From Candidatus Caenarcanales bacterium (GTDB lineage Bacteria; Cyanobacteriota; Vampirovibrionia; 2-02-FULL-35-15): a DNA stretch of 64,000 nucleotides. The stretch spans positions 17,305 to 81,304 of the forward strand of contig JAGVKQ010000022.1 of NCBI GenBank assembly GCA_020050435.1. The letters run 5' to 3'. The notes beneath the pieces were generated by a model, which saw only the letters and a program-made list of their open reading frames with translations, searched no databases and was not told where the DNA came from. Positions 22,691-39,159 of this stretch are shown piece after piece; within the stretch, counting starts at the first letter, position 1; each line of letters begins with the position of its first letter. A program made the translations under genes and the position numbers.

Positions 22691-22767
22691 GGCAGGTGTC
22701 GCCAAGTGGTTAAGGCCCCGGGTTGTGGTTCCGGTATTCGCGGGTTCAAGTCCCGTCATCTGCCCCA
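22691..22767 (+). tRNA. tRNA-His (anticodon GTG) with encoded G-1 and 3' CCA
   Basis: A cloverleaf folded by hand. Acceptor GCAGGTG/CATCTGC (with G-1 before it), U8, a D-arm, anticodon stem CCGGG/TCCGG with loop TTGTGGT (anticodon GTG), a 5-nt variable loop, T-arm GCGGG-TTCAAGT-CCCGT, discriminator C, then CCA. Confidence 0.85.
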
Positions 22768-24348
22768 TATGGGAAGAACAGAGGCACAAGCCTCTTCCTT
22801 CCCTTTATTTAAGCCACTTTCAGCTAGTTCTAACCTAACATTTGCATTATCAAGCTCTTCTTTGTTTTCAAGAATAGGTTTTAGCCAGAAAATAGGCTCT
22901 AGCTTTAGTTTCCTGTCTTTTAAAACAAAGTTCAATCCAAGTGAAGCAAGTACTTCTTTCCTCTTTTGTATATCGCCATTATCAAAGGCTTTCTTAGCGT
23001 TTTCAGCGAAATAAAAAACCCTTTGTGTAAGCTCAATCCAATCTAATGACCTTTTGTGAGTCTGGTCAAGTCTTTGCTTTATATTGACTAGTTCATTCTT
23101 TAAAGTCTCTTGCTCTTTGATAAATTGTTCATCTGTAATCAACTCACGATATCTCATTTGAATCAGATTATCCAATTGCTTTTGAGTTTGTACATAAGAT
23201 TTTTGTTGCATTTCATATTCTTGATTTCTAGCTTTTACTTCATTATCATTTGCTTCTTTTACTTTTCTTACTGCCCATTCTCTAAATTTTGTACTTATAC
23301 CAAATCCACTTATTTCTTTTAATATTTGTTTTTCCATATCACCTAAAGTAATACTTGGTTGATTACATTTATAGTTTTTATTTTTCTTAGTGCATCTGTA
23401 ATAAATATATTTTGCTATATCACCAGTGCTTTTTATATGTTTAAATTTCTCTTCAGCCGTTACATAACATCCACATTCACCACATTTAATCATTCCAGTA
23501 AAAGAAAACTCATGAGTTTTAGCTCTTGGTTTACCTTCTTTTCCTAACAAGAATTGAACCTTATCAAATTCATTTAAAGTAACCATAGCTTCATGCTGAC
23601 CAGGATAATTAAGCCCGCTATAACTAACTATTCCAGTATAAAAAACATTAGTAAATATTCTATATATGCTGCTATTAGATAGAGGTTTATTTCCACCCTT
23701 CTTACCTCTTCTAGTTCTAAATTTCCAATCTTTATTTGCAATCTCTATAATTTTTGGTGGATTATAATTTCCTGTAAGCATTAAATCCCACATTTTGCGT
23801 ACCAAATGACATCTTTCAGGATCATTAACTATAGTTCTAGTAGCAATATCATTTATGTAGCCAGTAGGTGCATAGCAAGGAAGCCAGCCTTTTTTTACTT
23901 TACTTTCTAATCCACGTTTTGTATTTCTTTTTAAATCAATGATAAATTGATTAGCCATTCCACTTTCAACACTAAACAATAAAACATTGTCTTCAGGTTT
24001 ATATTCTCTGGTATAAGTCCTTATAGATTTAATCGTACCTTCTTGAAGTAGCCAACTGATTTTTCCACTATCTATAGGATTTCTGCTTAATCTGTTTATT
24101 TCCCAGCATAAAATACCTTGAGCTTCTCCCTTTTCTATCCTTTGAAGCATATTTTCAAAAATGGGTCTATTGTTTGGCAATTTAGCAGATTTAGCTTCAG
24201 TAAAAGTTTTAACAATTTTTAAATCAAATCTCTTCGCTACTTCTTTAAGTTTATCTAACTGATCTTCAATAGACTGAACCTGCCTATCTTCAGCTTCCTG
24301 AGATTTTCTTACATAAATAAAATATTTAATTTGATTATTTTCTGACAT
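22756..24348 (-). CDS. large serine recombinase (phage-type serine integrase)
   Basis: An N-terminal resolvase catalytic domain (YVRKSQEAEDRQVQSIEDQ…), a recombinase domain, a Cys-rich zinc ribbon (CGECGCY…C…C) and a C-terminal coiled coil. The C-terminal 12 bp overlap the tRNA-His 3' end. Confidence 0.9.
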   Translation of the reverse strand: MSENNQIKYFIYVRKSQEAEDRQVQSIEDQLDKLKEVAKRFDLKIVKTFTEAKSAKLPNNRPIFENMLQRIEKGEAQGILCWEINRLSRNPIDSGKISWLLQEGTIKSIRTYTREYKPEDNVLLFSVESGMANQFIIDLKRNTKRGLESKVKKGWLPCYAPTGYINDIATRTIVNDPERCHLVRKMWDLMLTGNYNPPKIIEIANKDWKFRTRRGKKGGNKPLSNSSIYRIFTNVFYTGIVSYSGLNYPGQHEAMVTLNEFDKVQFLLGKEGKPRAKTHEFSFTGMIKCGECGCYVTAEEKFKHIKSTGDIAKYIYYRCTKKNKNYKCNQPSITLGDMEKQILKEISGFGISTKFREWAVRKVKEANDNEVKARNQEYEMQQKSYVQTQKQLDNLIQMRYRELITDEQFIKEQETLKNELVNIKQRLDQTHKRSLDWIELTQRVFYFAENAKKAFDNGDIQKRKEVLASLGLNFVLKDRKLKLEPIFWLKPILENKEELDNANVRLELAESGLNKGKEEACASVLPIWGR

Positions 24349-24356
24349 CTTCTTTT
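24334..24356. repeat. 23-bp perfect direct repeat (ttattttctgacatcttctttta). Copy 1 spans the integrase start codon; copy 2 is at 24622-24644.
   Basis: Identical 23-mers lie 288 bp apart. Copy 2 encodes a truncated MSENNKKD* duplicate of the integrase N-terminus. Confidence 0.7.
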
Positions 24357-24446
24357 ATCCCTGTGAAATGATCAATGAGTTCATTCATTGGTTTATCTTT
24401 CCTATTCTTTTTGCCTTAGGGAAGTTACCTTTTGGTACTTCCTTTT

Positions 24447-24482
24447 TAGGCTCTTCTTTAGGCTCTTCTTTAGGCTCTTCAG
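24447..24482. repeat. 12-bp tandem repeat x3 (ctcttctttagg), giving EEPK repeats in the small minus-strand ORF 24385..24606
   Basis: Direct tandem copies are visible. Which overlapping small ORF is real is ambiguous. Confidence 0.5.
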
Positions 24483-24621
24483 TATTTCTAGTAATACTTG
24501 TGTGTATTTCTCCTATCACTCCACCGACAATTACAACAAGTATGGGCAAGGCTACAATTGCCATTCCAATGTCTACTAGTTGTCCTATACCTGCTCCTAT
24601 TGTCATATATTAATCCTTTTT

Positions 24622-24796
24622 ATTATTTTCTGACATCTTCTTTTACCACCAACCATGTTTTAGCAATTTTTATTCCCTTCAATGAACCCGCTTTTATCCT
24701 TTCCTTTAATGTTGTTGCATTTGCATAACCTAGCTTTTCAGCATCTGCTAGTGTTATTAATTCTTTCCCTTTTTTGTTAAACACCTTTTCTTGCAT
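24622..24796 (-). pseudogene. Xis/excisionase-like HTH ORF disrupted by a 1-nt frameshift in an A4 run
   Basis: ATG at 24794-24796 gives MQEKVF then a stop. The -1 frame continues …NKKGKELITLADAEKLGYANATTLKERIKAGSLKGIKIAKTWLVVKEDVRK*, an excisionase-type HTH pattern. It lies next to the integrase. Confidence 0.4.
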
Positions 24797-24805
24797 TTAT
24801 TACTA

Positions 24806-25450
24806 TTATACCCTTTCTTGTTCTTGTCGGTATCGACAATTCTTTAATACATAAGAGTTATTTATATATTTTTCAAACTTAGTGAAATTAGCTTTAAACT
24901 TCTGTAGTTTTTTTATGTAAGCATTAAACTTTCTAGTTGTATTATTACGGTATAAAGGTCTCTTTGCTCTTTTCCTTGCTTCTTCTAGCTCTCCTGCACT
25001 TATTTGTTTACCAAATTCCTTCCACTTGCCACTTAAATTACAGGCTTCATAAGTTAAATCATGACAGCTTCTGCAAGCGAAATAATGACTATAATTAGGC
25101 TTATATAAAACAGCACAGAGCTTGTTACAGGGTCCATTATTTGCTTTAATTGAGGAGCATAGGAAGAATGGCCTTATACCCCCAAGACTGCAAGGCAAGT
25201 AAGCAAGCTTAATATCATAATCAACAAACTCCTTTTGACCATAATTATTTTTTGAACAATACTGAAGGTTTATTGATGGATTATCAGCAGCATTTGCAAA
25301 TGAAAAGCTTATTTCATGTATGTCATCATTAATTACCAGCAATACTCCTGAAGAATCATTATCAAGGAATCCTTGCTGATTTAAAGTATAAATAGACAGC
25401 TTTAAACAGTCTTCTACTTCAGTTTTCTTATTCATTTGGTAATTTATCAT
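24806..25450 (-). CDS. Cys-rich hypothetical protein (possible zinc-binding)
   Basis: An ORF with multiple CxxC-like pairs. Confidence 0.45.
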   Translation of the reverse strand: MINYQMNKKTEVEDCLKLSIYTLNQQGFLDNDSSGVLLVINDDIHEISFSFANAADNPSINLQYCSKNNYGQKEFVDYDIKLAYLPCSLGGIRPFFLCSSIKANNGPCNKLCAVLYKPNYSHYFACRSCHDLTYEACNLSGKWKEFGKQISAGELEEARKRAKRPLYRNNTTRKFNAYIKKLQKFKANFTKFEKYINNSYVLKNCRYRQEQERV

Positions 25451-25599: not shown

Positions 25600-27417
25600 C
25601 TATTCATCTTTAACTAAAATATACTTAGTACTATAATCACCTTTCCCACCAGAACCTACTTTTAATATAAGTTCTTGCGTTTGCAGCATTTTCAAAGCTT
25701 TAGTTATTGCATCTTTACTAAACTCTTTTGGAACTAATTGCTCATCTATCTCTTTCCTTAAAAGTCCAAGTGGCACATTTTTTAGAATTTCCATGATTCG
25801 TTTACTGGCTTTTTCAGATTCCTTTGGCTTGCTATCAAACACAAAATTACTAGCACTACCCTCACTCTCAAAAAATATTAAATTATTCTCATCTGTAGCA
25901 CGTCTGATTGCGATAGGCTCAACTTCTGGACCCTCTTTAATCTTATTGGGTGTTAGCTTCAATAAAGGGCCGTCTGTGGCTTTCTCAACTACTAAATGGG
26001 TATCTAGGTAAGAAAGGATATCTGAAGAACCTCTCAATTTTTGAGAAGCTTCTTCCCTTATGTCCTTTACTTTCTTTTTGTGGTGATGTGTAAATATTAC
26101 AGAAATTCCGAAAGTTCTACATTTTGCAATTTGACTGAAAAAATTATTTGTAACTTCTGACTCATTTTCTGATCCTGTTATAAATCGCCTGAAAGAATCC
26201 ATAATCAATACTTTAACGCCTCTTTGAGCTGCTTTCTCTAAAGTCTGATCCCATATCTTACCGTCTTTATGCAGAGTAACTACTTGATCGCATGAAAGAA
26301 TAATATCTTCACTTTCAATAACTTCTTTACCACCTCTCATACATTCAAATCTTTTTTTAAGATTAGATAAAATACTTTCTTTATCTAACATCCATACTTT
26401 TTGTTTTTCACACTGGAATTTATTTAGCCACATCCCGCCAGTAGCAAAACAAATTGCTAAATCTAAAAGCAAGAAAGTTTTATAACTTGCTGGATCACCA
26501 GAAAGCATTGCTATACCTTTTTCTTTCAATAAAGTATCTACTATCCATTTAGGTTCGGGGAAATCTGATCTAAGTAAATCTCTAATAGTAATTGGATTTA
26601 ACCAAGAGCCTGGTTCATGAGCTGATTCATATTGCTCTAATGCTTCAGAAGCAATTCTAGAATTACTAGCACTATTGAAGATAGAACCAAGTTCACCTTT
26701 TATATATGCTTCAGCATAAGTAGAAGCACATTTATCTTTAGCAAATGCTTTGAACATTTCCCATGCAAGTTTTTGTTGTTTAGGGAAACCTGAATGTAAT
26801 TGCTGTGCTATTAAATATAAGTCAGTATTCCTTTGTCCTTCTGGAATCTCTGCTGATTCTAATATATCTTGAATCTTCCCTTTGTTAGCAGAACCATCTT
26901 CAAAACATGATTCTAAAAGTTCGTAAGGTAATTCTGGAATGTCATCCCATGATTCAGGGAACTCAGTAATTTTATAAGCATTGCCATTTGGATGTATTGA
27001 TGGTGGAGCAAGTACATAACCACCTTCACCACGGAAATCTACACCAGGAATTCTCCTGCAGAAGTTAGGAAGTGATTTCCCTTTTGGCATTTTAAAATAA
27101 AAATGTAATCCACCATTTCCAGTTTCTACAGTAAAAGTATATGGAAGCTTAGAAATTAATTCATTTGCTTCTGGTGTTGATTCATCAATGTCTATTACAC
27201 AAATGTTTGATAAATTACCAGTAATGATTGCTATATTTTGAAACTCTTTAAACCATTCAGTTATTTCTTCAATGGTTGGATGTCTTTCTTGGTATTCCTT
27301 CCACTTCATTGAAGGGATTTTAGATTTAGGTGGAAGAGCAAGAATTGATAATCCTTGACTGCAATAATAAGTTACTAAATTTCTAAATGTTTTATACTGC
27401 TCTTCTGATTGTTCCAT
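25600..27417 (-). CDS. bifunctional primase-polymerase (PrimPol) N-domain fused to a RecA-like P-loop ATPase (replicative helicase-like)
   Basis: The N-terminus (…LALPPKSKIPSMKWKEYQ…NIAIITG…VIDIDES…) is prim-pol-like. The middle (…AMLSGDPASYKTFLLLDLAICFATG…) is a P-loop/RepA-like domain. This pairing is typical of integrated elements. Confidence 0.75.
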   Translation of the reverse strand: MEQSEEQYKTFRNLVTYYCSQGLSILALPPKSKIPSMKWKEYQERHPTIEEITEWFKEFQNIAIITGNLSNICVIDIDESTPEANELISKLPYTFTVETGNGGLHFYFKMPKGKSLPNFCRRIPGVDFRGEGGYVLAPPSIHPNGNAYKITEFPESWDDIPELPYELLESCFEDGSANKGKIQDILESAEIPEGQRNTDLYLIAQQLHSGFPKQQKLAWEMFKAFAKDKCASTYAEAYIKGELGSIFNSASNSRIASEALEQYESAHEPGSWLNPITIRDLLRSDFPEPKWIVDTLLKEKGIAMLSGDPASYKTFLLLDLAICFATGGMWLNKFQCEKQKVWMLDKESILSNLKKRFECMRGGKEVIESEDIILSCDQVVTLHKDGKIWDQTLEKAAQRGVKVLIMDSFRRFITGSENESEVTNNFFSQIAKCRTFGISVIFTHHHKKKVKDIREEASQKLRGSSDILSYLDTHLVVEKATDGPLLKLTPNKIKEGPEVEPIAIRRATDENNLIFFESEGSASNFVFDSKPKESEKASKRIMEILKNVPLGLLRKEIDEQLVPKEFSKDAITKALKMLQTQELILKVGSGGKGDYSTKYILVKDE

Positions 27418-27571: not shown

Positions 27572-27823
27572 TTAGTTTCCGTATACTCTGGACTTGAGCA
27601 TTTTGATATTGTCAAAATAGCTGCGTGCACTCACTTGAAGATTATCCGACCAGTAATCTTCAATAACTTCATCAATACCGTCATCTTTTTGAAATATGAA
27701 TAAAACTTTTTTAGGGTTCAATTTATTTAAATTAATCAATGTGTAATTTGTAGAAATCAAACTAGAAGCTAGCCCAAGATCAGAAGTCGAAAACAGTTTA
27801 TTTTGAGTAATAGTTCTTATCAT
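27572..27823 (-). CDS. hypothetical small protein
   Basis: ORF only. Confidence 0.35.
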   Translation of the reverse strand: MIRTITQNKLFSTSDLGLASSLISTNYTLINLNKLNPKKVLFIFQKDDGIDEVIEDYWSDNLQVSARSYFDNIKMLKSRVYGN

Positions 27824-29072: not shown

Positions 29073-29318
29073 CTATTCTTCCCAGTCTAAAATCCAATTA
29101 GGTTCAATGCAGTAAATATCACATAAAGCCTTAAACTTATCTACATCACAGTTGGACTTCCCCATTTCAACTTTTGATAACTGGGATTTACTCCAGCGTA
29201 TCTTATGAGTTTCATATAAAAGCTTTAACGCTTGGCTAAGAGATAAATCCATTTCTTCCCTAGCCTGTTTAAGCCTTTTATTCCAAGTGTCAGTACTTTT
29301 CTTAGGTTTGGAAGCCAT
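29073..29318 (-). CDS. XRE-family helix-turn-helix transcriptional regulator (cI/Cro-like)
   Basis: An 81-aa protein with an HTH pattern (…LSLSQALKLLYETHKIRWSKSQLSKVEMGKSN…). It is divergent from the rightward cargo operon. Confidence 0.75.
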   Translation of the reverse strand: MASKPKKSTDTWNKRLKQAREEMDLSLSQALKLLYETHKIRWSKSQLSKVEMGKSNCDVDKFKALCDIYCIEPNWILDWEE

Positions 29319-29352: not shown

Positions 29353-29375
29353 CGTTTCGATAAACGAAACGTTTC
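29353..29375. promoter_or_regulatory. operator-like palindromes in the divergent promoter (cgtttcg-ataaa-cgaaacg; the overlapping 10-bp perfect palindrome gaaacgtttc)
   Basis: Perfect inverted repeats are seen in the 86-bp gap between the XRE repressor start and the first + strand cargo gene. Confidence 0.45.
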
Positions 29376-29404
29376 ATTAAAAGAAACAGGATTTTGAAAC
29401 AAAA

Positions 29405-30266: not shown

Positions 30267-30287
30267 AAATATGGGATTGTGTAGTAA

Positions 30288-30569: not shown

Positions 30570-30610
30570 ATGATTTAGAAAAAGAAATAGTATATTTTTA
30601 ACTAGCAATT

Positions 30611-30640: not shown

Positions 30641-30657
30641 GAGCATATAATAAAAGT

Positions 30658-31233: not shown

Positions 31234-34113
31234 ATGCTGGAAAGGTTTACAACTGAAAATATAAATAAACTTGGTGATGAGAGTTTTGAGGAGTTATGCA
31301 AAGCTCTTTTATGCAAGGTAATAGGCCCAGGGATTAAGCCATTTGGTGCTGGTAAAGATGGGGCAAGAGAAGCTACATTTGAAGGTAAAGCTTCATACCC
31401 AAATGAACAATCTGCTTGGGGAGGCAAGTGGATATTTCAGGTTAAGTATGCTGACTATTCAGTTGATCCAAGTAAAGCAAGAACAAGAATTAAAGGATAC
31501 ATAGATTCTGAATTAGAAAAGATCAAAGACTATGGATATTTTAAAGATAATAAATGTGATAACTATATTCTTATTACTAATGTTCCCTTTACTGGTGAGA
31601 ATAAGGTGGGAATGCATGACAAAATATCAGAAAAGATACAAGAAATTGAAAATAACTTTCCTGGTAAAAAAATTGATTACTGGGATGGTGAACAAATAAG
31701 AAATTATTTAAGAGCATATCCTGACTTGAAGGAAGAATTTTTTCCATCCATTTCTCAAAAAATACTAGATGAAGTTATTAAGCAGAATCAAACTAGTATT
31801 AGGGTAGAACAAAAGTTAGATGCTACTGGTAACAACAAAGATAAACTTGAATTAATATCTTCACAAATAAGTGAATCAAAGTCATTAATTGATAATAACA
31901 AACCAGGTTCAGCATTGATAATTTTAGAAAAGGTACAAGAAAGGTTTTTAAATGTTTTAGATGATGAAAGTAAGTTTAAATTGTTTACCAATATAGGTGT
32001 AGCAAAATCTAAATTTATCAAAGATGGTTCTGAACTAACATTTAAGAGGCATATAGCACAATGCTTTGATGATGCATTAAAAATTAAACCAAATGATGAA
32101 AAAGCATTATGCAATGCAGCTATTGGAAATCAAATGATAGGAAATGATAAAAGAGCTAATGAGTTAGCTATGAAAGTCTTAGAAATAAACAACTCCTCAG
32201 ATAAGGCTTTTTCAATAATAGTTAATTCCTTAAGTAAGAGAGGAAAACTATTAGAAGATATCCTGAATGAAATTCCTGAAAAATATCATAGCCAACCAAG
32301 AACTGCATGTAGTATAGGTACTTCTCTGTTTATAAAAGATAAAGTAAAGGATGCTAGAGATTGGTATGAAAAATCTATCAATAGCAGAAATGAGTCAGAT
32401 GAAGACTTGGCAAAAAAACTATATTCTACAGCTACTGTTCAATTGGCAATCAATGAAAAGAAACATAAAGGATTTGTTTCTGAAGTTTTAAAAAAAGACT
32501 TAGAAAAGTCAATTAATTATTTAACAGAGATATGGAAAAAGTTTTATAAGACAGAACTAATGCATCTGTATATTGATGTTCTTGGTGAAAGAGCAAATGC
32601 TAAGCACTATTTAGGAGAAACAAAAGAAGCAATTAGAGATATGGATTTTGCATTAGAGCAGGAGCCAGATAATCTCTTAGTTTTAGTTAATAAAGCAAAT
32701 ATGGAGCTTTCAATAGGAGAAATTAGTAATAAGACTATAGAAAAAGTTGAAAAGGTTTACAAAGGTAGTGGGCATGATCAACTCCCACTGTTATTAATAG
32801 ATTTATTGGTTGTTGCAGGAAAAGAAAAAGATGCCATTCCTCTTACTGAACAATATATCTTAGATTACCCAAATAACTTATACATAGAAGACATTAAACA
32901 AAAACTAGTAGTTTTGTATTTAAGAAGGAGTACGAAAGAATCCTTGGAGAAGGCTAAGGCTCTCAACAAAGAATTGATAAAGCAAAATCCAAAGTCTATA
33001 TTACACTTTATTGATGAAGCAGAAATAAAAAGGGTTGAAGGAGCTGATGGTAAAAGCTCGCTGTTAGTAGCAATAAAAAGTGTTAGTGATGAAGCACTAT
33101 CTGGAGAACTGCTTTCACTGGCTGAAACGCTATTTAAGTTTGGCTTATTTAAAGAAGCTGCTGATATTTATAGCAGGATTACAGATTTGAACATTCCTAG
33201 CCCAAATTTGGAAAAATTGTTATCTGCCTTATCAAGATCTGATCAAGGAAATGAAGCTATGAACATATGTAGAAATTTGCGTTTAATTCATGGTCCGCTG
33301 ATTGGATATTCAGATGAAGAAGCAAGACGCTTAATAAATAAAGGTGTAAAAGAAAATAAAAAAGAATTGATTGAAACTGCAAGAGATATTTTTGAAAAAC
33401 TTATAGAGAAGCATGATAATGACATTTGGCTGAAAATTAACAAAGCAACTTGTGATTTTCACTTAGAAGATTTTAGTAAACTCAATACTTTCCTTGAGAG
33501 TGACATTAATATGGATTCATTCGATGAAGAAATGTTTGTTAATCTTTCAGTAATGCTTCTTCAGCGTAACTATTTTGAAAAAGCTGTTCATGTAATTTAT
33601 GAGGGATGGCGTAGATATCCAACTAGCTTAATAATTGGAGATAAATACAATGCAATATTTCTGTATTCATCTAGTCATTTAAATATTGAAGAATTTAGAA
33701 AAATCCAAAAAGCTAATTATGGTTGTGCCATATGTATAGAAGGGGAGAGGAATAAAGATCAATGGTTCTTAATTGAAAATAGGCAGGATATAAGACAAGA
33801 GATTAATGAAATAAATATGAGTAAAAGTAAAAGTTTAGTTGAGCAATTTTTAGGAAAGTCTATTGGCGATGAAGTTACTATAGGTGGAACTCTTGGATTA
33901 TCTAATAAAAGAAAAATTAAAGATATAATCCATAAATATGCTTATGCTTTTGACAAATGTGTGGAATATACAGATATTCATAATCCATCTGGCACTCAAA
34001 TGGTAAGAGCACATATAGATGAGAATATTACACCAGAGGACTTTATTTCACTATTAAATCAATCTGTGGAAGAAATGAAGAAAAGAACATCAAGCAACGA
34101 AGATATTGAATAA
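31234..34113 (+). CDS. Mrr-type restriction endonuclease (PD-(D/E)xK) N-domain fused to a long TPR-like repeat array (959 aa)
   Basis: The N-terminal ~160 aa are collinear with the Mrr catalytic-domain pattern (GDESFEELCKALL…GAGKDGAREATFEG…WIFQVKY…NYILITNVPFTGENK…IDYWDGEQI). The remainder is helical repeat sequence with TPR-like periodicity. No Walker A motif was found. Confidence 0.6.
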   Translation: MLERFTTENINKLGDESFEELCKALLCKVIGPGIKPFGAGKDGAREATFEGKASYPNEQSAWGGKWIFQVKYADYSVDPSKARTRIKGYIDSELEKIKDYGYFKDNKCDNYILITNVPFTGENKVGMHDKISEKIQEIENNFPGKKIDYWDGEQIRNYLRAYPDLKEEFFPSISQKILDEVIKQNQTSIRVEQKLDATGNNKDKLELISSQISESKSLIDNNKPGSALIILEKVQERFLNVLDDESKFKLFTNIGVAKSKFIKDGSELTFKRHIAQCFDDALKIKPNDEKALCNAAIGNQMIGNDKRANELAMKVLEINNSSDKAFSIIVNSLSKRGKLLEDILNEIPEKYHSQPRTACSIGTSLFIKDKVKDARDWYEKSINSRNESDEDLAKKLYSTATVQLAINEKKHKGFVSEVLKKDLEKSINYLTEIWKKFYKTELMHLYIDVLGERANAKHYLGETKEAIRDMDFALEQEPDNLLVLVNKANMELSIGEISNKTIEKVEKVYKGSGHDQLPLLLIDLLVVAGKEKDAIPLTEQYILDYPNNLYIEDIKQKLVVLYLRRSTKESLEKAKALNKELIKQNPKSILHFIDEAEIKRVEGADGKSSLLVAIKSVSDEALSGELLSLAETLFKFGLFKEAADIYSRITDLNIPSPNLEKLLSALSRSDQGNEAMNICRNLRLIHGPLIGYSDEEARRLINKGVKENKKELIETARDIFEKLIEKHDNDIWLKINKATCDFHLEDFSKLNTFLESDINMDSFDEEMFVNLSVMLLQRNYFEKAVHVIYEGWRRYPTSLIIGDKYNAIFLYSSSHLNIEEFRKIQKANYGCAICIEGERNKDQWFLIENRQDIRQEINEINMSKSKSLVEQFLGKSIGDEVTIGGTLGLSNKRKIKDIIHKYAYAFDKCVEYTDIHNPSGTQMVRAHIDENITPEDFISLLNQSVEEMKKRTSSNEDIE

Positions 34114-34131: not shown

Positions 34132-35484
34132 ATGGATGACAAAGAAAAATTTATAAATAGAATTATTAATAGCATTCTTAAGCCAATAGAAGAAAGACAT
34201 AAAGAAAATATATATAGTGAAATATTTGAAGTGGTTTGCTATGACTTAGGATTAAATGCTAATGATTTAATTGCAGAAGAAAATAAGTTCAATTTGGGAG
34301 GAGTTTTCACTCACATACCTTCTTTATCAGACATAGCAAATGGTGATTTTAATACTGTTCTAGAAATAATTGAATCAATTTATGCATATTTCAACTTTTC
34401 TCCTGAAATTCAATCGGAAATATCCTCCAAAGTATTTTCTGCACTAGAACTTGCTAAAGATGCTTTGGGTATTAAATGGAAAAATGGAAGCTTTATAAGA
34501 GAAAGTACAAGTAATGCAATTAAAGAAGAAATATCCTTTATTGTTAACAACGAAAGAAACAAGTTTATTGAAAGAGTAGCATCAAAGATATTTGAAGAAA
34601 TTCAAAGAAGACCAAACTACAAAGAATTGCTAAGTGAAGCTTGTTTCTATTTAGGGATAAATTTAAAAAGTAAGATAAAAAAAAGATTTACAGGGTTAGG
34701 GACTAATACTTATTACCCTCATTTAGTAGATTTAGTTAAAAGTAATTTTGTAGAGGCAGTAAAGTTAATTATTTTTTTGTTAGAATATTTTGAAGATGAC
34801 AAAACTACAAAAGATAAAATACTACAATATTTAGATCTATCTTTATCTCTTTCGCCAATTGATATAGGCATTAAACTAAAAGATTTTAAATTGCTTTTTT
34901 CAGGCTCAGATGAAGTTATAAATATTAAAAATATTAATAATTTAGATAGAATCCAAGATATAACAATAGACGAATTCAGTAGAAAGGCAAACGAAAAACC
35001 TTTAAGATTACATATAGATGACATCTTTTCATTTGCCCAAGTAAAAAATATTAAAGTAAGCGATATTAAGGATCTACTTCCTATATCTCTACTTGAAGAT
35101 GAAATTCAAAAGCATTTTGAAGATATTATTGCTGAGCCTGACCATAAAAAAGATTGGGGTGGTGAAATTAATGATTTATACACATCTCGTTTACAAATTA
35201 TAGAAGGGAAAAGAGTTACAGCTGCCTTTGCTTTGAAAGGACGTGGAACTCCTGGAAGATTACGAATAAAAAATTGTGGTAAAAATGGAGATCAGCTTTT
35301 AAGACTTTTTGAATCGCCAGCTATACTTTTTGTAATTCAACATATAGGTGTAATAACAGAAGAAGTTATAAAGGATGTAGAAGGCAAAACAGCACTTTTA
35401 AGATACAAAGGTATTGAGGCATATTATTGTATTATTGATGGACATGATACGGTAAGAATTTTGAAAGCCTACAATAAACTATAA
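34132..35484 (+). CDS. hypothetical protein (450 aa), tightly linked to the Mrr-TPR gene
   Basis: It starts 18 bp after the upstream stop. The C-terminal region has a weak D…ExK-like arrangement (…EINDLYTSRLQIIEGKR…); no confident domain call. Confidence 0.5.
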   Translation: MDDKEKFINRIINSILKPIEERHKENIYSEIFEVVCYDLGLNANDLIAEENKFNLGGVFTHIPSLSDIANGDFNTVLEIIESIYAYFNFSPEIQSEISSKVFSALELAKDALGIKWKNGSFIRESTSNAIKEEISFIVNNERNKFIERVASKIFEEIQRRPNYKELLSEACFYLGINLKSKIKKRFTGLGTNTYYPHLVDLVKSNFVEAVKLIIFLLEYFEDDKTTKDKILQYLDLSLSLSPIDIGIKLKDFKLLFSGSDEVINIKNINNLDRIQDITIDEFSRKANEKPLRLHIDDIFSFAQVKNIKVSDIKDLLPISLLEDEIQKHFEDIIAEPDHKKDWGGEINDLYTSRLQIIEGKRVTAAFALKGRGTPGRLRIKNCGKNGDQLLRLFESPAILFVIQHIGVITEEVIKDVEGKTALLRYKGIEAYYCIIDGHDTVRILKAYNKL

Positions 35485-35851
35485 ATATCCTCAGTCAAGG
35501 AAATACCCTATGCTACCAAGCCATCCAAATGACCCCTTGCACCCAAATACCCTGGGGTGATTTATGTTCATAAGGACTTTAAATAGTGTAAGCAGAAGTA
35601 GGGTAGAAAATTAAACAAATTACTATTTACCATCTCAAGTCTCAAGCGGGGACTCTATAACCGAAGCCCGCTATATCAAACCCAATACCCAAATACCTGG
35701 GGGGCTGTTATATCCATAGTGTTTGAAAAGTAACCTGTTTCAAAGCAATAGTAATGGACTGCTACTCCTAAAAACACTATGCTTTTTAGGAGTAAGGTAG
35801 GAGACTTAAGCCACATCTCTATAATCAGGAATATACAAATGCCCCTTATGA

Positions 35852-35901
35852 TTTATAATTGCAGTTCTAACACGTTCTAGGGTGTTGCCCATTTTTTATT
35901 C
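35852..35901 (+). promoter_or_regulatory. conserved ~50-bp upstream element, copy A (…ataattg…ttctaacacgttctagggtgttgcccattttttattc)
   Basis: A homologous copy B lies at 38041-38101. Both lie 80-120 bp upstream of + strand genes (36019, 38184). Confidence 0.45.
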
Positions 35902-36018: not shown

Positions 36019-37041
36019 ATGAGTAAATTAACTATATTACCTTTGGATAGGTATCTTTCATTGGCATGGTTTCATCTGGTAAGGAGTTGTGAACCATCCA
36101 CTAATCGTGTAGCTGTTGATTTTGACCAGACTTTTCCATCTGAAAGATTGGAAGAATTGGTTAGTCATACGCAAAGTGGAGGTAATGATGGAATGTTACC
36201 TTTTCGAGCGGTGGGTTATACAAAAGCAGACTATGCAAACTTAGTAGGAGTGGAAAGCTTTAGACAATTAAGAGAAACTCTTGCTAAATTAGCAAATCCA
36301 AATGAAACAGAAGAAATACTATCTTTAATTTTAGAAACAAAAGCAGCAGCAAGAAACATTGAACCTAAAACATTTTTCTCAACTAATGGAACTCCTATTA
36401 ATACTTGGGAATTTGTTGAGATGTTTCCTCAATTTACAGATTTACGCTATATTGAATATCTTGACCCTAATACTATTTTGCGAATACAAGAGCATGCAAG
36501 AAGATATTTGTTTCGTGAATATAAAATAGATAAAACTGGAGAACCCTCTGGAGCTGAAAGATTACTTCTTGCAAATGAAGGTGATGAGGGTTTGTATAAA
36601 TCTGCTGCAGTTGGTTTTAAAAGAAGTGTGCCTCTAGATACGCAGCAATTTTTTTTAGACTTAAATTACAATTTAAAATATGCTCAAGATATTCTTACTA
36701 GCAGGATTCATAAGAGAAAAGATGGAGTCATGGTAGATTCAATAATGACAGGACCTCTTTTTGGTGATGATACGAATTCAGATATTAGGTGGATTAGTCT
36801 TTGGGTAAAGAATGATCTCCTGGCATTATTTAAGAACATTCAATTTAAAAGAAAAGAAGAATTAGCTGATGAAATCACTTCTACTATTTGGAGAATAACA
36901 GCAGAAGTAGATTTAGAACAAGCAACCCAACTCGCAGATAGAGAAATGAGGGGTCAAATTGAAAGATTCGATATAGATCAAGCCAGTATTTATATACTCA
37001 GGGAGTTATACAATATTGTTCTAAAAATGAAACAAGCATAA
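36019..37041 (+). CDS. hypothetical protein (340 aa), locally higher GC
   Basis: ORF with no motifs. Confidence 0.5.
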   Translation: MSKLTILPLDRYLSLAWFHLVRSCEPSTNRVAVDFDQTFPSERLEELVSHTQSGGNDGMLPFRAVGYTKADYANLVGVESFRQLRETLAKLANPNETEEILSLILETKAAARNIEPKTFFSTNGTPINTWEFVEMFPQFTDLRYIEYLDPNTILRIQEHARRYLFREYKIDKTGEPSGAERLLLANEGDEGLYKSAAVGFKRSVPLDTQQFFLDLNYNLKYAQDILTSRIHKRKDGVMVDSIMTGPLFGDDTNSDIRWISLWVKNDLLALFKNIQFKRKEELADEITSTIWRITAEVDLEQATQLADREMRGQIERFDIDQASIYILRELYNIVLKMKQA

Positions 37042-37071
37042 TATAAGTAAAACTAGTTTTTAGCAATTAAT

Positions 37072-37965
37072 TCAACTCTTCTGTCCTACACCATGAGATG
37101 ACATCATCTCTATCAAACACTGAGTGGGCACAGCAGCAGGAGTAAAATCCACATCAGATATTCTAATAGCGCCATGTTGCAACCCAACTACATTTCCATT
37201 TATATCTACTAATGGACCACCACTAAATCCTGCACTGCTAAATGCATTATGAATAATATGTTCTGTTGATTCTTTTTTCTGCATTTTTTCAAAAGAACCA
37301 ATTGTAATTAATTGTTCACCTTGCATAAGAATTGGATTTCCAATTAAGAATAAAGGCTCCTCTCTATCAGTAGGAATTTGTGGTGAAATTGACAGATGTT
37401 CATTTGTTATATCAGCAATTTCTGGAATTCTAATTAAAGCCATATCAGGTTTATAGGAGTCCATATAAAATGCTCTTTCTGCTAAATGGATAAGCTTTGC
37501 TCCATTGATTTTAACTTTTCTTTTTCCACCGATAATAATTTCAGTCTGCAATTTTGAAAGTAGTTCTCTATCTCTTTCAAAATTATTTTCACATCTAGTT
37601 TCAAATCTTGTATGACCTGGGCGAGTATCTATAAGATCACTTATTACATGGCTGTTTGTAATAATGTATCCATTTTCTGCTGCAATAAATCCTGTTCCAT
37701 ACCAATTATGGTTACTATGATCTCCACAAAACCGAACACTTAAATCATGTGCTCTGCATACATTTTGAAATGCTTTATCGCCGGCTAAATCCTCTCTTCT
37801 GAAAAAGTAAAACCCTATATTTTTATTTGCTAAATCACTTTCTTTTAAAGCTCTTGGTGCATATTGAGGTCTCATAGCGACATGACTTTTTCTAAGTGAT
37901 CCTTGTAAAAAATCAGCATTGGTAGTGGGTCCTGCTGTTCTAATTGTAGGTCTTTGAATTTTCAT
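37072..37965 (-). CDS. trypsin-like (S1 family) serine peptidase without a recognisable signal peptide
   Basis: A His-motif region (TNSHVISD) and the Ser motif GFSGGPLV (GDSGGP-like). The N-terminus is hydrophilic. Confidence 0.65.
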   Translation of the reverse strand: MKIQRPTIRTAGPTTNADFLQGSLRKSHVAMRPQYAPRALKESDLANKNIGFYFFRREDLAGDKAFQNVCRAHDLSVRFCGDHSNHNWYGTGFIAAENGYIITNSHVISDLIDTRPGHTRFETRCENNFERDRELLSKLQTEIIIGGKRKVKINGAKLIHLAERAFYMDSYKPDMALIRIPEIADITNEHLSISPQIPTDREEPLFLIGNPILMQGEQLITIGSFEKMQKKESTEHIIHNAFSSAGFSGGPLVDINGNVVGLQHGAIRISDVDFTPAAVPTQCLIEMMSSHGVGQKS

Positions 37966-38040
37966 ATTAAATTAGCCGTTCAATTCCATTGAAGCAAAAA
38001 CTTAAAGTCTTAATCAAGTTTTTAAGATTAAATTCTTTTA

Positions 38041-38101
38041 ATAATTGAACTCGCTGCCGCCGCTGCTCTAACAAGCTCTACAGTGTTGCCCATATTTATT
38101 C
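38041..38101 (+). promoter_or_regulatory. conserved upstream element, copy B (ataattg…gctctaacaagctctacagtgttgcccatatttattc)
   Basis: Matches copy A in three blocks: ataattg, ctctaaca, gtgttgcccat…tttattc. Confidence 0.45.
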
Positions 38102-38183
38102 ATTTACTTATAAATTTGTCAAATCTTCAACACAGTTTAGTAATTAATACTAAGGGGTAGAACTACCTTGGAGGGTTATACCT

Positions 38184-38834
38184 ATGTTTATATTAGAAGT
38201 ATCGCTAAATGGAAACGGAAATGGAAAATCACAGGCCGACTACAATAGAGAATCAGATCAGGGATTAAGAATTCTTAAAGAAGCTACACAAGAATCATCA
38301 ATTTTAAAATGCAAAACCAATTCTTCTAAGATATATAATTTTGCTAAAGAATTTAAAAATCTTCCAACAGATGCACAATTAACTGTTGCAAAATTAATGC
38401 AATGCAGTGTATTGAAAAATAAAGGACTCTCCGCAGAAGAGATTATAGAAAACCCAGAGTTGATTGAAAGAACTCTTTCTGCACCACAGGAACAAGCTCC
38501 TAATGCTGACACTGAAACATGTAATAAGATGAAGCTAATAAATGTAGATAGAAAATTACACAACTTGAAAAAGTATAAGACTTCATTACAAGCATATTAC
38601 AATATGCATGATACTAAGGAAGTTCCTTTTTCATTACCCCAGATAGAGATGCAGATTAGAATGTTTGAAACACTTGAGGAATCAGGTGTAAAAGATATAA
38701 ATCTTCCCTTAAAATCTGTTGAGCAGGAATTAAATGAAGCATCTAAGATATTAAGATCATTGGAAAGGCAAAATGAAGCTCAGGCAAAGGTTATAAGTGA
38801 AATGAAAAAAGCTTTGCTAGAGTACAACTTATAG
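38184..38834 (+). CDS. hypothetical coiled-coil protein
   Basis: ORF only. Confidence 0.45.
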   Translation: MFILEVSLNGNGNGKSQADYNRESDQGLRILKEATQESSILKCKTNSSKIYNFAKEFKNLPTDAQLTVAKLMQCSVLKNKGLSAEEIIENPELIERTLSAPQEQAPNADTETCNKMKLINVDRKLHNLKKYKTSLQAYYNMHDTKEVPFSLPQIEMQIRMFETLEESGVKDINLPLKSVEQELNEASKILRSLERQNEAQAKVISEMKKALLEYNL

Positions 38835-39159
38835 ATTCTAAGCCAACTCGTTTAATATTCCTTTGATGCTTCCAAAAAAGGAGCTTCTAGTTTGTTTGCC
38901 TTTAAGTTCTTCTTTTATGGCAAATTTCGCCCCATCACAAAGCTTCTTAGCTAATGGTTTTGTGGTAAATAGCCTTTTTGTTATTAAGCCAGCCAATTTT
39001 AAAAATGCATTCATATTTTGAGCATAATAAATTATTTTTAAGGAGTTATTAAGCTAAATACTAAATTAAAAAAAATTAATCTTTATGTAGATTGCTTGCC
39101 CCATGTTAATACTTGTCAATATTTTAAGACTCCATCCCTTTTATAAGCAGGGGTGAATT

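What the first reader, a model, noticed from the sequence alone, without database searches (positions are those of the whole stretch)
22691..39112. Integrative element at tRNA-His: serine integrase overlapping the tRNA 3' end, Xis-like remnant, PrimPol-ATPase, XRE switch, unknown cargo
tRNA-His(GTG) is directly followed by a large serine recombinase on the opposite strand whose last 12 bp overlap the tRNA 3' end, so the element reconstitutes the tRNA end. Behind it lie an excisionase-like HTH ORF, a primase-polymerase/P-loop ATPase, and an XRE repressor divergent from an operator-bearing promoter. Then come about 10 kb of genes with no recognisable homologues. Core-type genes resume near 40.1 kb. 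The right boundary is not identifiable with confidence. The element may be composite, with long non-coding gaps at 35485-36018 and 38835-39159.
Basis: partly seen in the sequence, partly recalled or inferred. Interest (0 to 1): 0.6.

Follow-up and report, generated by a model that had tools for sequence, protein, structure and literature searches.

The report
Serine-integrase defence island at tRNA-His
A 13-kb mobile element sits at the 3' end of a tRNA-His gene in a Melainabacteria genome; its serine integrase belongs to a large, apparently undescribed family that targets tRNA 3' ends and loses its own C-terminal tail on integration.

Summary
tRNA-His(GTG) at 22692-22767 overlaps by 12 bp the stop end of a 530-aa large serine integrase on the opposite strand. 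Behind the integrase lie a small HTH gene, a PrimPol-AAA_25 replication gene, DUF5659 and an XRE regulator with palindromic operators.

I could fix the right boundary. A P-arm plus an orphan 28-codon "integrase tail" lies at 35806-35892. Joining it to attL in silico restores an in-frame 555-aa integrase. The same holds for six unrelated family members. The element is therefore about 13.1 kb, from core TGCCC at 22761-22765 to core TGCCC at 35886-35890. It does not run to 39.1 kb. A second, degenerate attR-like site at 38062-38093 marks an older remnant.

Of 84 related loci, at least 54 have a tRNA gene of nine isoacceptor types overlapping the integrase end. The tRNA T-loop motif GTTCRA lies 23 nt from the CCA end in attB. 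Its mimic GTTCTAA lies 28 nt away in attP. This is the 5-bp zinc-ribbon-domain offset published for serine integrases. The element also supplies a covarying terminator hairpin just after the tRNA.

The cargo looks like defence genes. Mobility has not been demonstrated.

The parts
22691..22767 (+). tRNA-His(GTG) with encoded G-1 and CCA. It forms the B arm of attL. The T-loop motif GTTCAAGT lies at 22744-22751, 23 nt from A76.
   Evidence: ARAGORN; Rfam tRNA 54 bits; motif offset
22761..22765 (+). attL common core TGCCC (tRNA positions 70-74). The crossover must lie here. Site geometry suggests G71-C72.
   Evidence: attL/attR comparison and in-silico excision; offsets read against the LI integrase model in PMC3783163
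22771..22810 (+). Two-part hairpin (22771-22803) followed by UUUAUUU, directly after the tRNA and antisense to the integrase C-terminal codons. Proposed intrinsic terminator for the tRNA, supplied by the element.
   Evidence: dG -19.1 kcal/mol, z -4.6. Across 48 family sequences the stem is 81.9% paired against 28-55% in slid controls, with covariation 0.346 against <=0.133.
22756..24348 (-). Large serine integrase in its integrated (truncated) form, 530 aa, ending ...LPIWGR*. The last 4 codons are antisense to tRNA positions 65-76, and W528 (TGG) is antisense to CCA.
   Evidence: Pfam; invariant catalytic-region columns R14, S16, R22, Q23 and W528; sequence
24385..24606 (-). 73-aa ORF with EEPK repeats and no homologues. 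It lies in a 288-bp segment flanked by a 41-nt duplication of the integrase RBS and first 5 codons (24317-24357 / 24605-24645).
24623..24796 (-). 57-aa small protein, candidate recombination directionality factor. It is conserved immediately upstream of the integrase in L084, L085, L086 and L087 (49-67% identity).
   Evidence: tblastn. Only a faint HTH_17 match, in the L086 orthologue (E 0.037). The function is inferred.
24806..25450 (-). 214-aa Cys-rich backbone protein of unknown function, conserved in 28 of the related loci.
   Evidence: no Pfam or NCBIfam family
25600..27417 (-). PrimPol + AAA_25 (primase-polymerase/helicase-type ATPase), the replication module. This module differs in relatives.
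   Evidence: Pfam 4e-30 and 2e-25; PHROGs primase families; variants
27572..27823 (-). DUF5659 protein, a backbone gene found in 32 related loci.
27919..29010 (-). 363-aa backbone protein of unknown function, with weak relatives in L089 and L099.
29073..29318 (-). XRE-type HTH regulator, 63% identical to the one in L084.
29354..29387 (.). Two adjacent palindromes, GTTTCG-N5-CGAAAC and GTTTC-N7-GAAAC, in the divergent promoter region. Candidate operators.
   Evidence: a promoter-like site at 29324-29352
29405..31137 (+). Four small genes (124, 167, 93 and 159 aa) with signal-peptide or transmembrane-like N-termini. No homologues in related elements.
   Evidence: sequence inspection
31234..34113 (+). 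959-aa cargo protein. The N-terminal ~175-aa domain is shared with nSTAND3 NTPase proteins and carries a GKDGAREA...FQxK motif. The ~700-aa TPR array is related to TPR-GreAB-C-PIN conflict-system proteins, but the GreAB-C and PIN parts are absent.
   Evidence: AF2 model pLDDT 84, with no significant PDB match.
34132..35484 (+). 450-aa cargo protein. Its C-terminal ~180 aa form a conserved uncharacterised domain (DWGGE..D...AFxLKG...GDQ) found in ~290-aa proteins of many phyla, often after a large partner gene or in integrase islands.
   Evidence: AF2 pLDDT 85.5, with no significant PDB match.
35485..35805 (.). Non-coding stretch inside the element: three CCAAATACC-type repeats and a perfect 12-bp hairpin (35763-35794) just past the tail stop codon. 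Candidate origin and/or terminator.
35806..35892 (-). Orphan integrase tail (GNTLERVRTAIINHKGHLYIPDYRDVA*) plus the P arm of attR1. GTTCTAAC lies at 35864-35871, core TGCCC at 35886-35890 and A at 35891. This is the distal end of the element.
   Evidence: Repeat D2. An independent nhmmer profile gives E 1.2e-4 here as the only significant hit in the window. Tails of 4 unrelated elements have their best hit here. In-frame restoration. Offset 28.
36019..37965 (.). Segment between attR1 and attR2. It holds a 340-aa ORFan (36019-37041, +) and a trypsin-like peptidase (37072-37965, -). Probably left over from an earlier element.
38062..38093 (+). attR2, a second, degenerate P-arm. GCTCTAAC lies at 38065-38072 and core TGCCC at 38087-38091. 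Its tail, GNTVELVRAAAAASSIIKRI*, has lost the IPD motif.

Best explanation
A ~13.1-kb integrative element (core to core 22761-35890) is inserted at the 3' end of tRNA-His by a large serine integrase.

Attachment sites. The integrase's attP lies inside its own gene, about 27 codons before the stop. In the free form the gene would encode a 555-aa protein ending W-GNTLERVRTAIINHKGHLYIPDYRDVA. The attP P arm carries a T-loop mimic (GTTCTAAC) 28 nt from the CCA-like end, plus a copy of the last few nucleotides of the target tRNA. attB is the tRNA itself. Its real T-loop (GTTCAAGT) lies 23 nt from A76, 5 bp closer to the crossover. This is the offset by which the zinc-ribbon domain of serine integrases distinguishes attB from attP.

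Consequences of strand exchange within TGCCC (probably at G71-C72):
- The tRNA body is joined to element-supplied C72-A76.
- The integrase tail is replaced by 2 codons read antisense from the tRNA (WGR*).
- An orphan tail is left at attR.
- A covarying hairpin plus T-run, encoded antisense in the integrase 3' end, is placed directly behind the tRNA as a replacement terminator.

Other modules. The backbone comprises the 57-aa candidate RDF, a 214-aa protein, PrimPol-ATPase, DUF5659 and an XRE switch, and would provide excision control and replication of the circle. The divergent arm carries cargo that is most likely an anti-phage or conflict module (REase-like-TPR protein plus a 450-aa partner).

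What is shown: the anatomy, the att junctions, in-frame restoration, family-wide recurrence, the motif offsets and hairpin covariation.

What is inferred: the actual recombination chemistry, the exact dinucleotide, recognition of the T-loop by the zinc-ribbon domain, the roles of the tail, of o57 and of the cargo, and present-day mobility.
For: Anatomy.

The same tRNA-His/integrase 12-bp overlap occurs in L084, L085, L086 and L158, and with read-through in L087.

Family recurrence. 50 of 84 loci have an ARAGORN tRNA of 9 isoacceptor types overlapping the integrase end. Four more are tRNA genes split by group I introns. Eighteen contigs end within 90 nt of the integrase. W528 is invariant and is the antisense of CCA. 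Of the 120 closest database homologues, 54 read into tRNA-antisense xSNP/ELNP peptides and 41 stop <=6 aa after W.

Free-form genes. Integrases without a tRNA continue with W-x6-VRT...IPD tails over GTTCTAAC-N18-CCA.

Distal junctions. A profile of these P arms finds distal, correctly oriented copies 8.4-11 kb from the integrase in 8 integrated elements. Built without window or L002 sequences, it hits window 35800-35871(+) at E 1.2e-4 as the only significant match.

In-silico excision restores an in-frame conserved tail in the window and in 6 other elements.

Motif offsets. The offset is 23 in 41 of 43 tRNAs. It is 28 in 6 of 6 P arms and in the reconstructed window attP. The 5-bp shift is the published LI integrase model (PMC3783163).

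Hairpin.

Variable content among relatives.

Defence-type cargo in sister elements: type I and III R-M, and NACHT. Window cargo links to nSTAND3 and TPR-GreAB-C-PIN proteins.
Against: - No empty attB and no circular attP junction of this particular element was found. An exact search for the tRNA 3' half in metagenome contigs returned nothing, and no related contig was circular.
- The common core is only 5 nt, and the B' arms of seven reconstructed attB sites share no motif. The B' half-site is therefore unexplained.
- No clear mirror of the GTTCTAA motif was seen in the P' arm (sequence inspection; inverted-repeat scan negative).
- A second attR-like site (38062-38093) with a similar B'-like T-rich flank has no worked-out origin.
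- A 288-bp insertion separates o57 from the integrase start. This could have disturbed expression.
- The cargo function rests on remote similarity only. Both fold searches were non-significant.
Confidence: 0.85

Rival explanations
1. The element is real but is now a fixed, vertically inherited island. It would have been integrated in an ancestor of this Melainabacteria clade, be no longer mobile, and have diverged in place by cargo replacement.
For: Integrase homologues occupy the identical IlvD-tRNA-His site in at least four relatives whose IlvD is 76-79% identical. The acceptor-stem halves covary across these genomes. A 288-bp insertion sits between o57 and the integrase. No empty site or circle was found.
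Against: The integrase ORF, o57, the P arm and the tail ORF are all intact, and the tail is restored in frame. Integrase identity (64-81%) does not track IlvD identity. Replication modules and cargo differ completely between relatives. L002 lacks the integrase but keeps orphan tails. This argues for repeated gain and loss at the site.
Confidence: 0.2
2. The active unit is the larger 15.3-kb composite from attL to attR2 (38087-38091), or tandem elements. The 35.9-kb site would then be an internal relic.
For: attR2 has the P-arm motif at the same spacing and the same TGCCC-A junction. It also gives an in-frame, though divergent, tail if aligned on TGCCC. A T-rich B'-like flank recurs at 35891, 35979 and 38092.
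Against: Only attR1 keeps the full conserved tail (VRT...YIPDYR) and scores with the independent profile. The attR2 tail is degenerate. The genes between the two sites are an ORFan and a protease whose upstream region looks disrupted. The delimited sister elements are 8.4-11 kb.
Confidence: 0.12
3. It is a phage satellite (PICI-like) or a small prophage rather than a cargo-carrying integrative element.
For: Integrase + regulator switch + primase is also the PICI/satellite backbone. PHROGs matches are to phage primases and repressors. The means of cell-to-cell transfer is unknown.
Against: No capsid, terminase, portal, packaging-redirection or lysis gene was found in Pfam or PHROGs. Only 3 distant (36-40%) integrase relatives occur in 2.9 million viral contigs, against >560 in metagenome contigs. 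Sister elements consist of backbone plus R-M systems.
Confidence: 0.1
4. The tRNA/integrase overlap is incidental. The recombinase would be a resolvase or invertase acting elsewhere, and the region a non-mobile genomic island extending to ~40 kb.
For: There is no long direct repeat of the tRNA in the window and no compositional contrast with the flanks.
Against: The family-wide tRNA overlap, the invariant W/CCA, the P-arm/tail at the distal end of 9 elements and the in-frame restoration cannot be incidental.
Confidence: 0.02

Closest known systems
Large serine integrases of phages (LI/A118, Bxb1, phiC31; att-site model of Rutherford et al. 2013, PMC3783163)
   Same: Same Resolvase-Recombinase-zinc-ribbon architecture with conserved catalytic-region residues. 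The att sites are short with a tiny common core. A shared outer motif lies 5 bp closer to the crossover in attB than in attP.
   Different: [quoted passage not shown] The attB outer motif is the universal T-loop. attP lies inside the integrase ORF. The carriers are small non-viral elements in Melainabacteria and Patescibacteria/CPR-type genomes. No activity data exist.
rumA-targeting single serine integrases of streptococcal ICEs (PMC4701971)
   Same: One repeat lies in the target gene and the other in the integrase gene. Integration reciprocally exchanges the 3' ends, so the integrase C-terminus changes in sequence and length.
   Different: There the partner is a protein-coding gene whose product also changes, and the element is conjugative. 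Here the partner is a tRNA that is restored, the lost tail is a conserved motif (VRT...IPD), and no conjugation genes are present.
Tycheposons of Prochlorococcus and marine bacteria (bioRxiv 10.1101/2020.12.28.424599)
   Same: Small elements next to tRNA genes with a site-specific integrase, a variable primase/helicase replication module, regulators and a swappable cargo arm. Remnants accumulate distal to the tRNA, building an island.
   Different: 910 of 937 elements in that survey use tyrosine recombinases and leave partial-tRNA repeats of about 40 nt. Here the integrase is a large serine recombinase, the repeat is 5-9 nt, and the remnant left behind is an orphan integrase tail.
SSV-type archaeal integrases, with attP inside the int gene (from my own knowledge; review PMC8371274 surfaced but was not read)
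   Same: attP lies within the integrase gene and attB within a tRNA gene, so integration partitions the integrase gene.
   Different: Those are tyrosine recombinases and the gene is split into two large, inactive parts. Here only ~27 C-terminal codons are removed, and the catalytic and DNA-binding domains stay intact.
TPR-GreAB-C-PIN and nSTAND3 predicted conflict systems (Pfam PF20698, PF20720)
   Same: The TPR array of the 959-aa cargo protein aligns over ~700 aa with TPR-GreAB-C-PIN proteins. Its N-terminal domain is 40-58% identical to the N-terminal domains of nSTAND3 proteins.
   Different: The window protein has no GreA/B-C, PIN or STAND NTPase domain. It is followed by a 450-aa protein with a different conserved C-terminal domain.

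Membership tests
Large serine integrase (LSI/LSR) | N-terminal Resolvase catalytic domain with the catalytic Ser and Arg residues, followed by Recombinase and zinc-ribbon domains | tested here: met
   PF00239 4e-19, PF07508 6e-9, PF13408 1e-11. R14, S16, R22, Q23, R86, L87 and R89 are invariant in the alignment.
Large serine integrase (LSI/LSR) | attP and attB share an outer (zinc-ribbon-domain) motif that lies 5 bp closer to the crossover in attB | tested here: met
   GTTCRA lies at offset 23 in 41 of 43 tRNAs. GTTCTAA lies at offset 28 in 6 of 6 P arms and in the window's reconstructed attP. Model from PMC3783163. This is sequence evidence only.
Large serine integrase (LSI/LSR) | Unidirectional attP x attB recombination with a 2-bp staggered cut; excision needs an RDF | not testable with these tools
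   Needs biochemistry. The common core TGCCC brackets the crossover.
Integrated mobile element (genomic island with attL/attR) | Two hybrid junctions whose recombination regenerates an intact attB and attP | tested here: met
   In-silico excision gives a tRNA-His ending CTGCCC-A, like the integrase-free relative L002, and an in-frame 555-aa integrase.
Integrated mobile element (genomic island with attL/attR) | Presence/absence polymorphism among related genomes | tested here: met
   L002 has the same IlvD-tRNA-His locus without an integrase. L084, L086 and L087 carry different modules. No same-species empty site was found.
Tycheposon | tRNA-adjacent, site-specific integrase + replication module + cargo | tested here: met
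Tycheposon | Tyrosine recombinase of the tycheposon clade; flanking partial-tRNA repeats | tested here: not met
   The integrase is a serine recombinase. There is no tRNA-fragment repeat, only a 5-nt core.
PICI / phage satellite or prophage | Packaging, capsid-redirection or virion genes | tested here: not met
   None found in Pfam or PHROGs for any ORF. The family is nearly absent from IMG/VR.
ICE / IME | Relaxase, coupling protein, T4SS or oriT | tested here: not met
   No such Pfam family found in any ORF of 22.7-39.9 kb. oriT was not searched.
TPR-GreAB-C-PIN conflict system (PF20698 context) | TPR array followed by GreA/B C-terminal domain and PIN nuclease in one protein | tested here: not met
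   The TPR part aligns with relatives at E 1e-62 to 1e-80. The window protein ends before the GreAB-C/PIN region and has no such Pfam hit.
Known anti-phage defence systems (PADLOC) | Match to a defined system's protein models | tested here: inconclusive
   Only weak partial hits: the REase part of an Aga model (E 1e-4) for the TPR protein, and the protease part of RT-Protease_XI for the trypsin-like peptidase.

The most novel reading that the evidence does not exclude
This integrase family is a distinct, widespread class of serine integrases, found here in Melainabacteria, Patescibacteria/CPR and Caldisericia-type genomes. It uses the universal tRNA T-loop as the attB zinc-ribbon-domain motif. 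It retargets between tRNA species simply by changing the 5-9 nt acceptor-end copy in its P arm. Because attP lies inside the gene, integration removes a conserved C-terminal tail (W-x6-VRT...YIPD). The free and integrated forms therefore make different enzymes. The tail swap itself would be part of the directionality switch: the full-length enzyme integrates, and the truncated enzyme is excision-competent or silent. This would be a self-encoded way to sense the integration state, and a naturally modular scaffold for tRNA-directed genome insertion.
Probability: 0.2. Interest if true: 0.85.

Novelty: new variant of a known kind. Interest (0 to 1): 0.62.

Why it matters
tRNA genes are the classic targets of tyrosine integrases. 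In the papers I could search, I found no description of serine integrases with systematic tRNA targeting, a T-loop mimic in attP, or an attP inside the integrase gene. This family is large.

It appears to be a main vehicle of R-M and other defence genes in small-genome lineages such as Patescibacteria and Melainabacteria, whose mobile elements are poorly known.

The att-site logic is readable directly from sequence: a universal outer motif, a short copy of the target's end, and a 5-bp offset. That makes a long-standing question testable, namely how serine integrases choose and change targets. It also offers candidates for integration at conserved tRNA loci.

The orphan tail is a practical marker for delimiting such elements at single-base precision, and for reading the history of tRNA-linked islands.

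Tried and rejected
- Direct repeats of the tRNA 3' end in the window: none.
- TGCCCCAT at 39097 as attR: rejected. It is 1 of 4 copies in the window and has no P-arm motif.
- Longest exact repeats between the attL region and element interiors in 37 loci: no better than the reverse-strand control.
- Inverted copy of the P' arm: no better than shuffles.
- tRNA-like nature of the D2 repeat: not supported by alignment or Rfam.
- GC, skew or composition as a boundary marker: uninformative.
- Exact look-ups of window proteins in the contig index: not on record.
- Cluster look-up: gave no names.
- Exact tRNA 3'-half search in metagenomes: no hits.
- Circular contigs among related loci: none.
- RNAalifold on the post-tRNA region: no structure until the helix was specified by hand.
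- Consensus terminator scan: missed the bipartite hairpin.
- Cargo identification through NCBIfam, PDB sequence search and two AF2 + Foldseek-PDB runs: only non-significant nuclease-like hints such as MUS81/XPF, Avs3, Shedu and RPB5.
- The 340-aa protein: an ORFan in 5.8 billion sequences.
- o57 as excisionase: only a faint HTH_17 hit in one orthologue.

Full report
**1. Check of the observation**

ARAGORN and Rfam place one tRNA in the window, tRNA-His(GTG), at 22692-22767 on the + strand. The encoded G-1 is at 22691. The ORF at 22756-24348 on the - strand (530 aa) has Resolvase, Recombinase and Zn_ribbon_recom domains. Its stop codon is the complement of TCA at 22756-22758, inside the tRNA. 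The last four codons (W-G-R-stop) are therefore antisense to tRNA positions 65-76, giving 12 bp of overlap.

Behind the integrase, on the same strand, lie:
- a 73-aa ORF;
- a 57-aa ORF;
- a 214-aa ORF;
- PrimPol+AAA_25 (25600-27417);
- a DUF5659 protein;
- a 363-aa ORF;
- an XRE-type HTH (29073-29318).

The spacer to the divergent + strand genes carries two palindromes, GTTTCG-N5-CGAAAC and GTTTC-N7-GAAAC, at 29354-29387.

The + strand arm holds four small genes, a 959-aa TPR protein and a 450-aa protein. After a 534-bp gap come a 340-aa ORF, a trypsin-like peptidase on the - strand, and 216-aa and 266-aa ORFs. An SDF symporter follows at 40146. Base composition does not separate element from flanks.

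**2. Host and relatives**

IlvD (18368-20077) is 79% and 78% identical to IlvD of two Melainabacteria MAGs (L001, L002). Nothing else exceeds 61%. Both MAGs also have tRNA-His downstream of ilvD.

The integrase has more than 3000 database homologues at E<=1e-10. The closest are 65-81% identical, followed by a dense cloud at about 55% whose named members are Patescibacteria, Parcubacteria and Caldisericia.

Contigs of the closest homologues (L084/L085, L086, L087, later L158) show the same locus: ilvD, tRNA-His, then the integrase overlapping the tRNA by 12 bp. In L087 the stop codon is lost and the ORF reads on through the tRNA. IlvD of these genomes is 76-79% identical to the window's.

Their backbones share the 57-aa gene, the 214-aa gene, DUF5659 and, in L084, the XRE. 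The replication genes and the cargo differ:
- L084 has a DnaG-type primase, and a 2047-aa NACHT/AAA_16 protein plus TonB as cargo.
- L086 has a split PrimPol, and a type I R-M system as cargo.
- L087 has a Toprim protein.

L002 has no integrase after its tRNA-His.

**3. A family that targets tRNA 3' ends**

An alignment-based scan of metagenome contigs returned 80 more loci at 49-64% identity. Of the 84 loci in all:
- 50 have a tRNA gene on the opposite strand whose CCA end overlaps the integrase end. These are His 16, Asn 14, Trp 5, Gln 4, Ser 4, Lys 2, Arg 2, Glu 2 and Asp 1.
- 18 more contigs end within 90 nt of the integrase.
- 4 apparent exceptions (L097, L103, L108, L110) are tRNA genes interrupted by group I introns. 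L093 and L159 look alike but were not tested.

The only invariant residue in the C-terminal 40 positions is W528, whose codon TGG is the antisense of CCA.

Among the 120 closest database homologues, 54 continue after W into peptides such as WDSNPR or RELNP. These are the antisense translation of a T-arm. A further 41 stop within 6 residues of W. Most database copies are thus in the integrated state next to a tRNA.

Only 3 distant relatives (36-40%) occur in 2.9 million viral contigs.

**4. The free form, and the right boundary**

In loci without a tRNA (L098, L104, L120, L131, L160 and others) the integrase runs 25-35 residues past W. These tails are conserved (W-x6-VRT...IPD). The DNA, read in tRNA orientation, is GTTCTAAC-N18-CCA followed by the usual integrase 3' sequence. 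I take these to be attP-state genes.

The 45-nt direct repeat that the repeat finder reported in the window (35861-35905 and 38062-38106) has exactly this form: GCAGTTCTAACACGTTCTAGGGTGTTGCCCA|T. The - strand ORF at 35806-35892 reads (M)GNTLERVRTAIINHKGHLYIPDYRDVA*.

A nucleotide profile of such P arms finds further copies on the correct strand, 8.4-11 kb from the integrase, in eight integrated elements: L093, L094, L107, L133, L138, L154, L164 and L167. Rebuilt from 13 loci without any window or L002 sequence, the profile hits window 35800-35871(+) at E 1.2e-4. This is the only significant hit in the window. Tail peptides of four unrelated elements each have their best tblastn hit at 35809-35889(-), and there is no other integrase fragment in the window.

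Joining the distal P arm to the proximal P' arm at the shared core restores an in-frame tail with the conserved motif. This works in the window and in six other elements. For the window the core is TGCCC (22761-22765 and 35886-35890). The element is 13,125 bp core to core, and the free-form integrase would be 555 aa.

I reject it.

**5. Where the crossover is, and what the element gives the tRNA**

Acceptor-stem positions 5-7 and 66-68 covary between host genomes: GTG/CAT, GTA/TAC, TTG/CAG and GCG/CGC. Positions 66-68 are therefore host sequence.

Identity between attL and attR1 begins at T70 and ends after the C run. attL has CCCC-A and attR1 has CCC-A. The same one-C difference appears in L093, L138 and L164. 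L154 keeps the full CCA at both ends. The integrase-free relative L002 ends CTGCCCAGG, without an encoded CCA.

The simplest reading is this. The empty attB lacks a complete CCA. The attP carries ...TGCCCCA. Exchange occurs at or just left of the C run, and the element donates C72-A76. Only this reading keeps the tail in frame.

The T-loop motif GTTCRA starts 23 nt from A76 in 41 of 43 target tRNAs. GTTCTAA starts 28 nt from the equivalent A in all six P arms with an intact CCA, and in the window's reconstructed attP. In the LI integrase model, the zinc-ribbon-domain motif occupies bp 16-24 of an attP half-site and bp 11-19 of an attB half-site (PMC3783163). With those numbers the centre falls at about G71-C72, inside the core. 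This agreement is sequence-level inference, not a binding experiment.

The reconstructed B' arms of seven elements share no motif. I could not find a convincing mirror of the outer motif in P'.

**6. A terminator supplied to the tRNA**

Directly after the CCA, on the tRNA strand and antisense to the integrase's last ~15 codons, the window has a bipartite hairpin at 22771-22803. Its free energy is -19.1 kcal/mol and its z-score -4.6. UUUAUUU follows it.

In 48 distinct family sequences the equivalent 9-bp stem is 81.9% paired, against 28-55% when the 3' partner is slid by 1-3 columns. There are 47 double-change cells (0 of 500 shuffles reach this), and the covariation score is 0.346 against <=0.133. 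Most members follow the stem with a T run.

Integration displaces whatever followed the tRNA by 13 kb, so I infer that the element carries a replacement terminator. The hairpin would also block antisense transcription into the integrase gene.

**7. The second site, and the island**

The site at 38062-38093 has the P-arm motif (GCTCTAAC) at the same spacing and the same TGCCC-A junction. Its tail (GNTVELVRAAAAASSIIKRI*) has lost the IPD part.

Between the two sites lie an ORFan with no homologue in 5.8 billion proteins and a trypsin-like peptidase. The peptidase matches the protease part of PADLOC RT-Protease models.

L002 shows the same pattern without an integrase: two orphan tails flank an MNT/HEPN toxin-antitoxin pair downstream of tRNA-His.

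I read these as leftovers of earlier insertions, as proposed for tycheposon islands (bioRxiv 10.1101/2020.12.28.424599). How a serine integrase re-uses an occupied site is not explained by my data.

Whether 38.1-40.1 kb (the 216-aa and 266-aa ORFs) is older island or host DNA remains open.

**8. Cargo**

*The 959-aa protein.* It is modular.
- Residues 5-180 are 40-58% identical to the N-termini of proteins that carry nSTAND3 NTPase domains. This domain has a GKDGAREA...W.FQxK...DNY.L.TN signature and a weak PADLOC hit to an REase module.
- Residues ~210-910 align with ~1300-aa proteins of the TPR-GreAB-C-PIN type (PF20698), but the protein lacks their GreAB-C and PIN parts.

*The 450-aa protein.* It ends in a ~180-aa domain that is about 50% identical to domains in ~290-aa proteins from Flavobacterium, cyanobacteria, Nitrospina and others. 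One of these follows a 1447-aa SMI1_KNR4 protein. Another lies in a tyrosine-integrase/HicAB island. The invariant residues are E, D-W-G-G-E..D, A-F..K-G and G...D-Q.

*Structure.* AF2 models of both domains are confident (pLDDT 85.5 and 84.3). Foldseek against the PDB gives nothing below E 0.02. The top rows include MUS81/XPF, Avs3, Shedu and RPB5. A nuclease fold is therefore only a hint.

*Sister elements.* Delimited sister elements carry type I-like and type III R-M systems or modification-type enzymes. The close relatives carry a NACHT protein or type I R-M.

A defence or conflict role for the window's cargo is the best inference. I put it at roughly 0.6.

**9. Comparison with known systems**

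The enzyme meets the tested criteria of a large serine integrase: domains, catalytic-region residues and the attP/attB motif offset.

An attP inside a serine integrase gene, with reciprocal exchange of 3' ends, has a precedent in rumA-targeting streptococcal ICEs (PMC4701971). An attP inside the integrase gene combined with a tRNA attB is known for archaeal SSV-type tyrosine integrases (my own knowledge).

The element architecture parallels tycheposons, which are overwhelmingly tyrosine-recombinase elements.

Four full-text searches found no description of this family, of tRNA targeting by serine integrases through a T-loop mimic, or of the conserved tail. Island databases such as TIGER/Islander may already list members (PMC12884075). 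I cannot exclude that.

**10. Verdict**

The element is shorter than proposed, with its distal junction at 35.89 kb, and it sits proximal to an older remnant.

It is ordinary in being a tRNA-linked island with integrase, replication, regulation and cargo modules. It is unusual in its recombination module, which belongs to a large family with a readable and apparently undescribed att-site logic.

Present-day mobility, the exact crossover, and the roles of the tail, of o57 and of the cargo remain untested.

Noticed in passing
L097 3132-3367, L103 7431-7692, L108 5541-5797, L110 3112-3372 (all - strand): Group I catalytic introns (RF00028, 68-104 bits) interrupt the tRNA genes (Asn-like 3' halves) that serve as integration targets in these CPR-type contigs. 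ARAGORN misses these genes for this reason.
   Followed up: partly
L103 1868-1991 (-): A LOOT RNA (RF03000, 88 bits) lies on the element side of a related integrase locus.
   Followed up: no
window ~7964 and ~42745; L001 1-1400: In the closest relative (L001), the homologue of the sulfotransferase at window 42746-43669 lies directly next to the homologue of window ~7964. This is consistent with an inversion of ~35 kb that contains ilvD, tRNA-His and the whole island.
   Followed up: partly
window 24317-24357 and 24605-24645: A 41-nt direct repeat (83%) duplicates the integrase RBS and its first five codons (MSENN). The 288 bp between the copies carry an ORFan of 73 aa with EEPK repeats. In relatives the 57-aa gene overlaps the integrase start directly, so this is a small insertion or duplication.
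   Followed up: partly
window 35501-35705 and 35763-35794: The non-coding end of the element holds three CCAAATACC-type repeats with CCCAGG/CCTGGGG palindromes. A perfect 12-bp hairpin lies just past the orphan-tail stop codon. These are candidate origin and terminator sequences.
   Followed up: no
L002 5493-5582 and 6598-6687: Two orphan integrase-tail/P-arm remnants flank a nucleotidyltransferase/HEPN toxin-antitoxin pair downstream of tRNA-His, in a relative that has no integrase there.
   Followed up: partly
window 39160-39960 and 39096-39104: The 266-aa coiled-coil ORF starts MGNTL, like the orphan tails, and TTGCCCCAT lies 56 nt upstream of it. Both were judged coincidental: there is no P-arm motif, and the 8-mer occurs 4 times in the window.
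   Followed up: yes
window 35891-35906, 35979-35994, 38092-38106: The T-rich string ATTTTTTATT(C/G)TTTAT that follows attR1 recurs 88 nt downstream and, with indels, after attR2. It is unclear whether this is a duplicated B' arm or a common AT-rich promoter-like sequence.
   Followed up: no
L001 10917-11083: In L001 the tRNA-His (with encoded CCA) is followed after 45 nt by the 3' end of an unrelated - strand ORF (...GKEIGRWII*). The contig ends there, so whether this site is empty or occupied by another element is unknown.
   Followed up: no
window 6001-8000: GC drops to 0.28 here, against ~0.32-0.33 for the window. It was not examined.
   Followed up: no
L167 2804-7614: The cargo of one delimited sister element is a 1014-aa fusion of a class-V aminotransferase (cysteine-desulfurase-like) with a methyltransferase, plus a second methyltransferase and a 320-aa protein. 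This may be a DNA-modification system.
   Followed up: no
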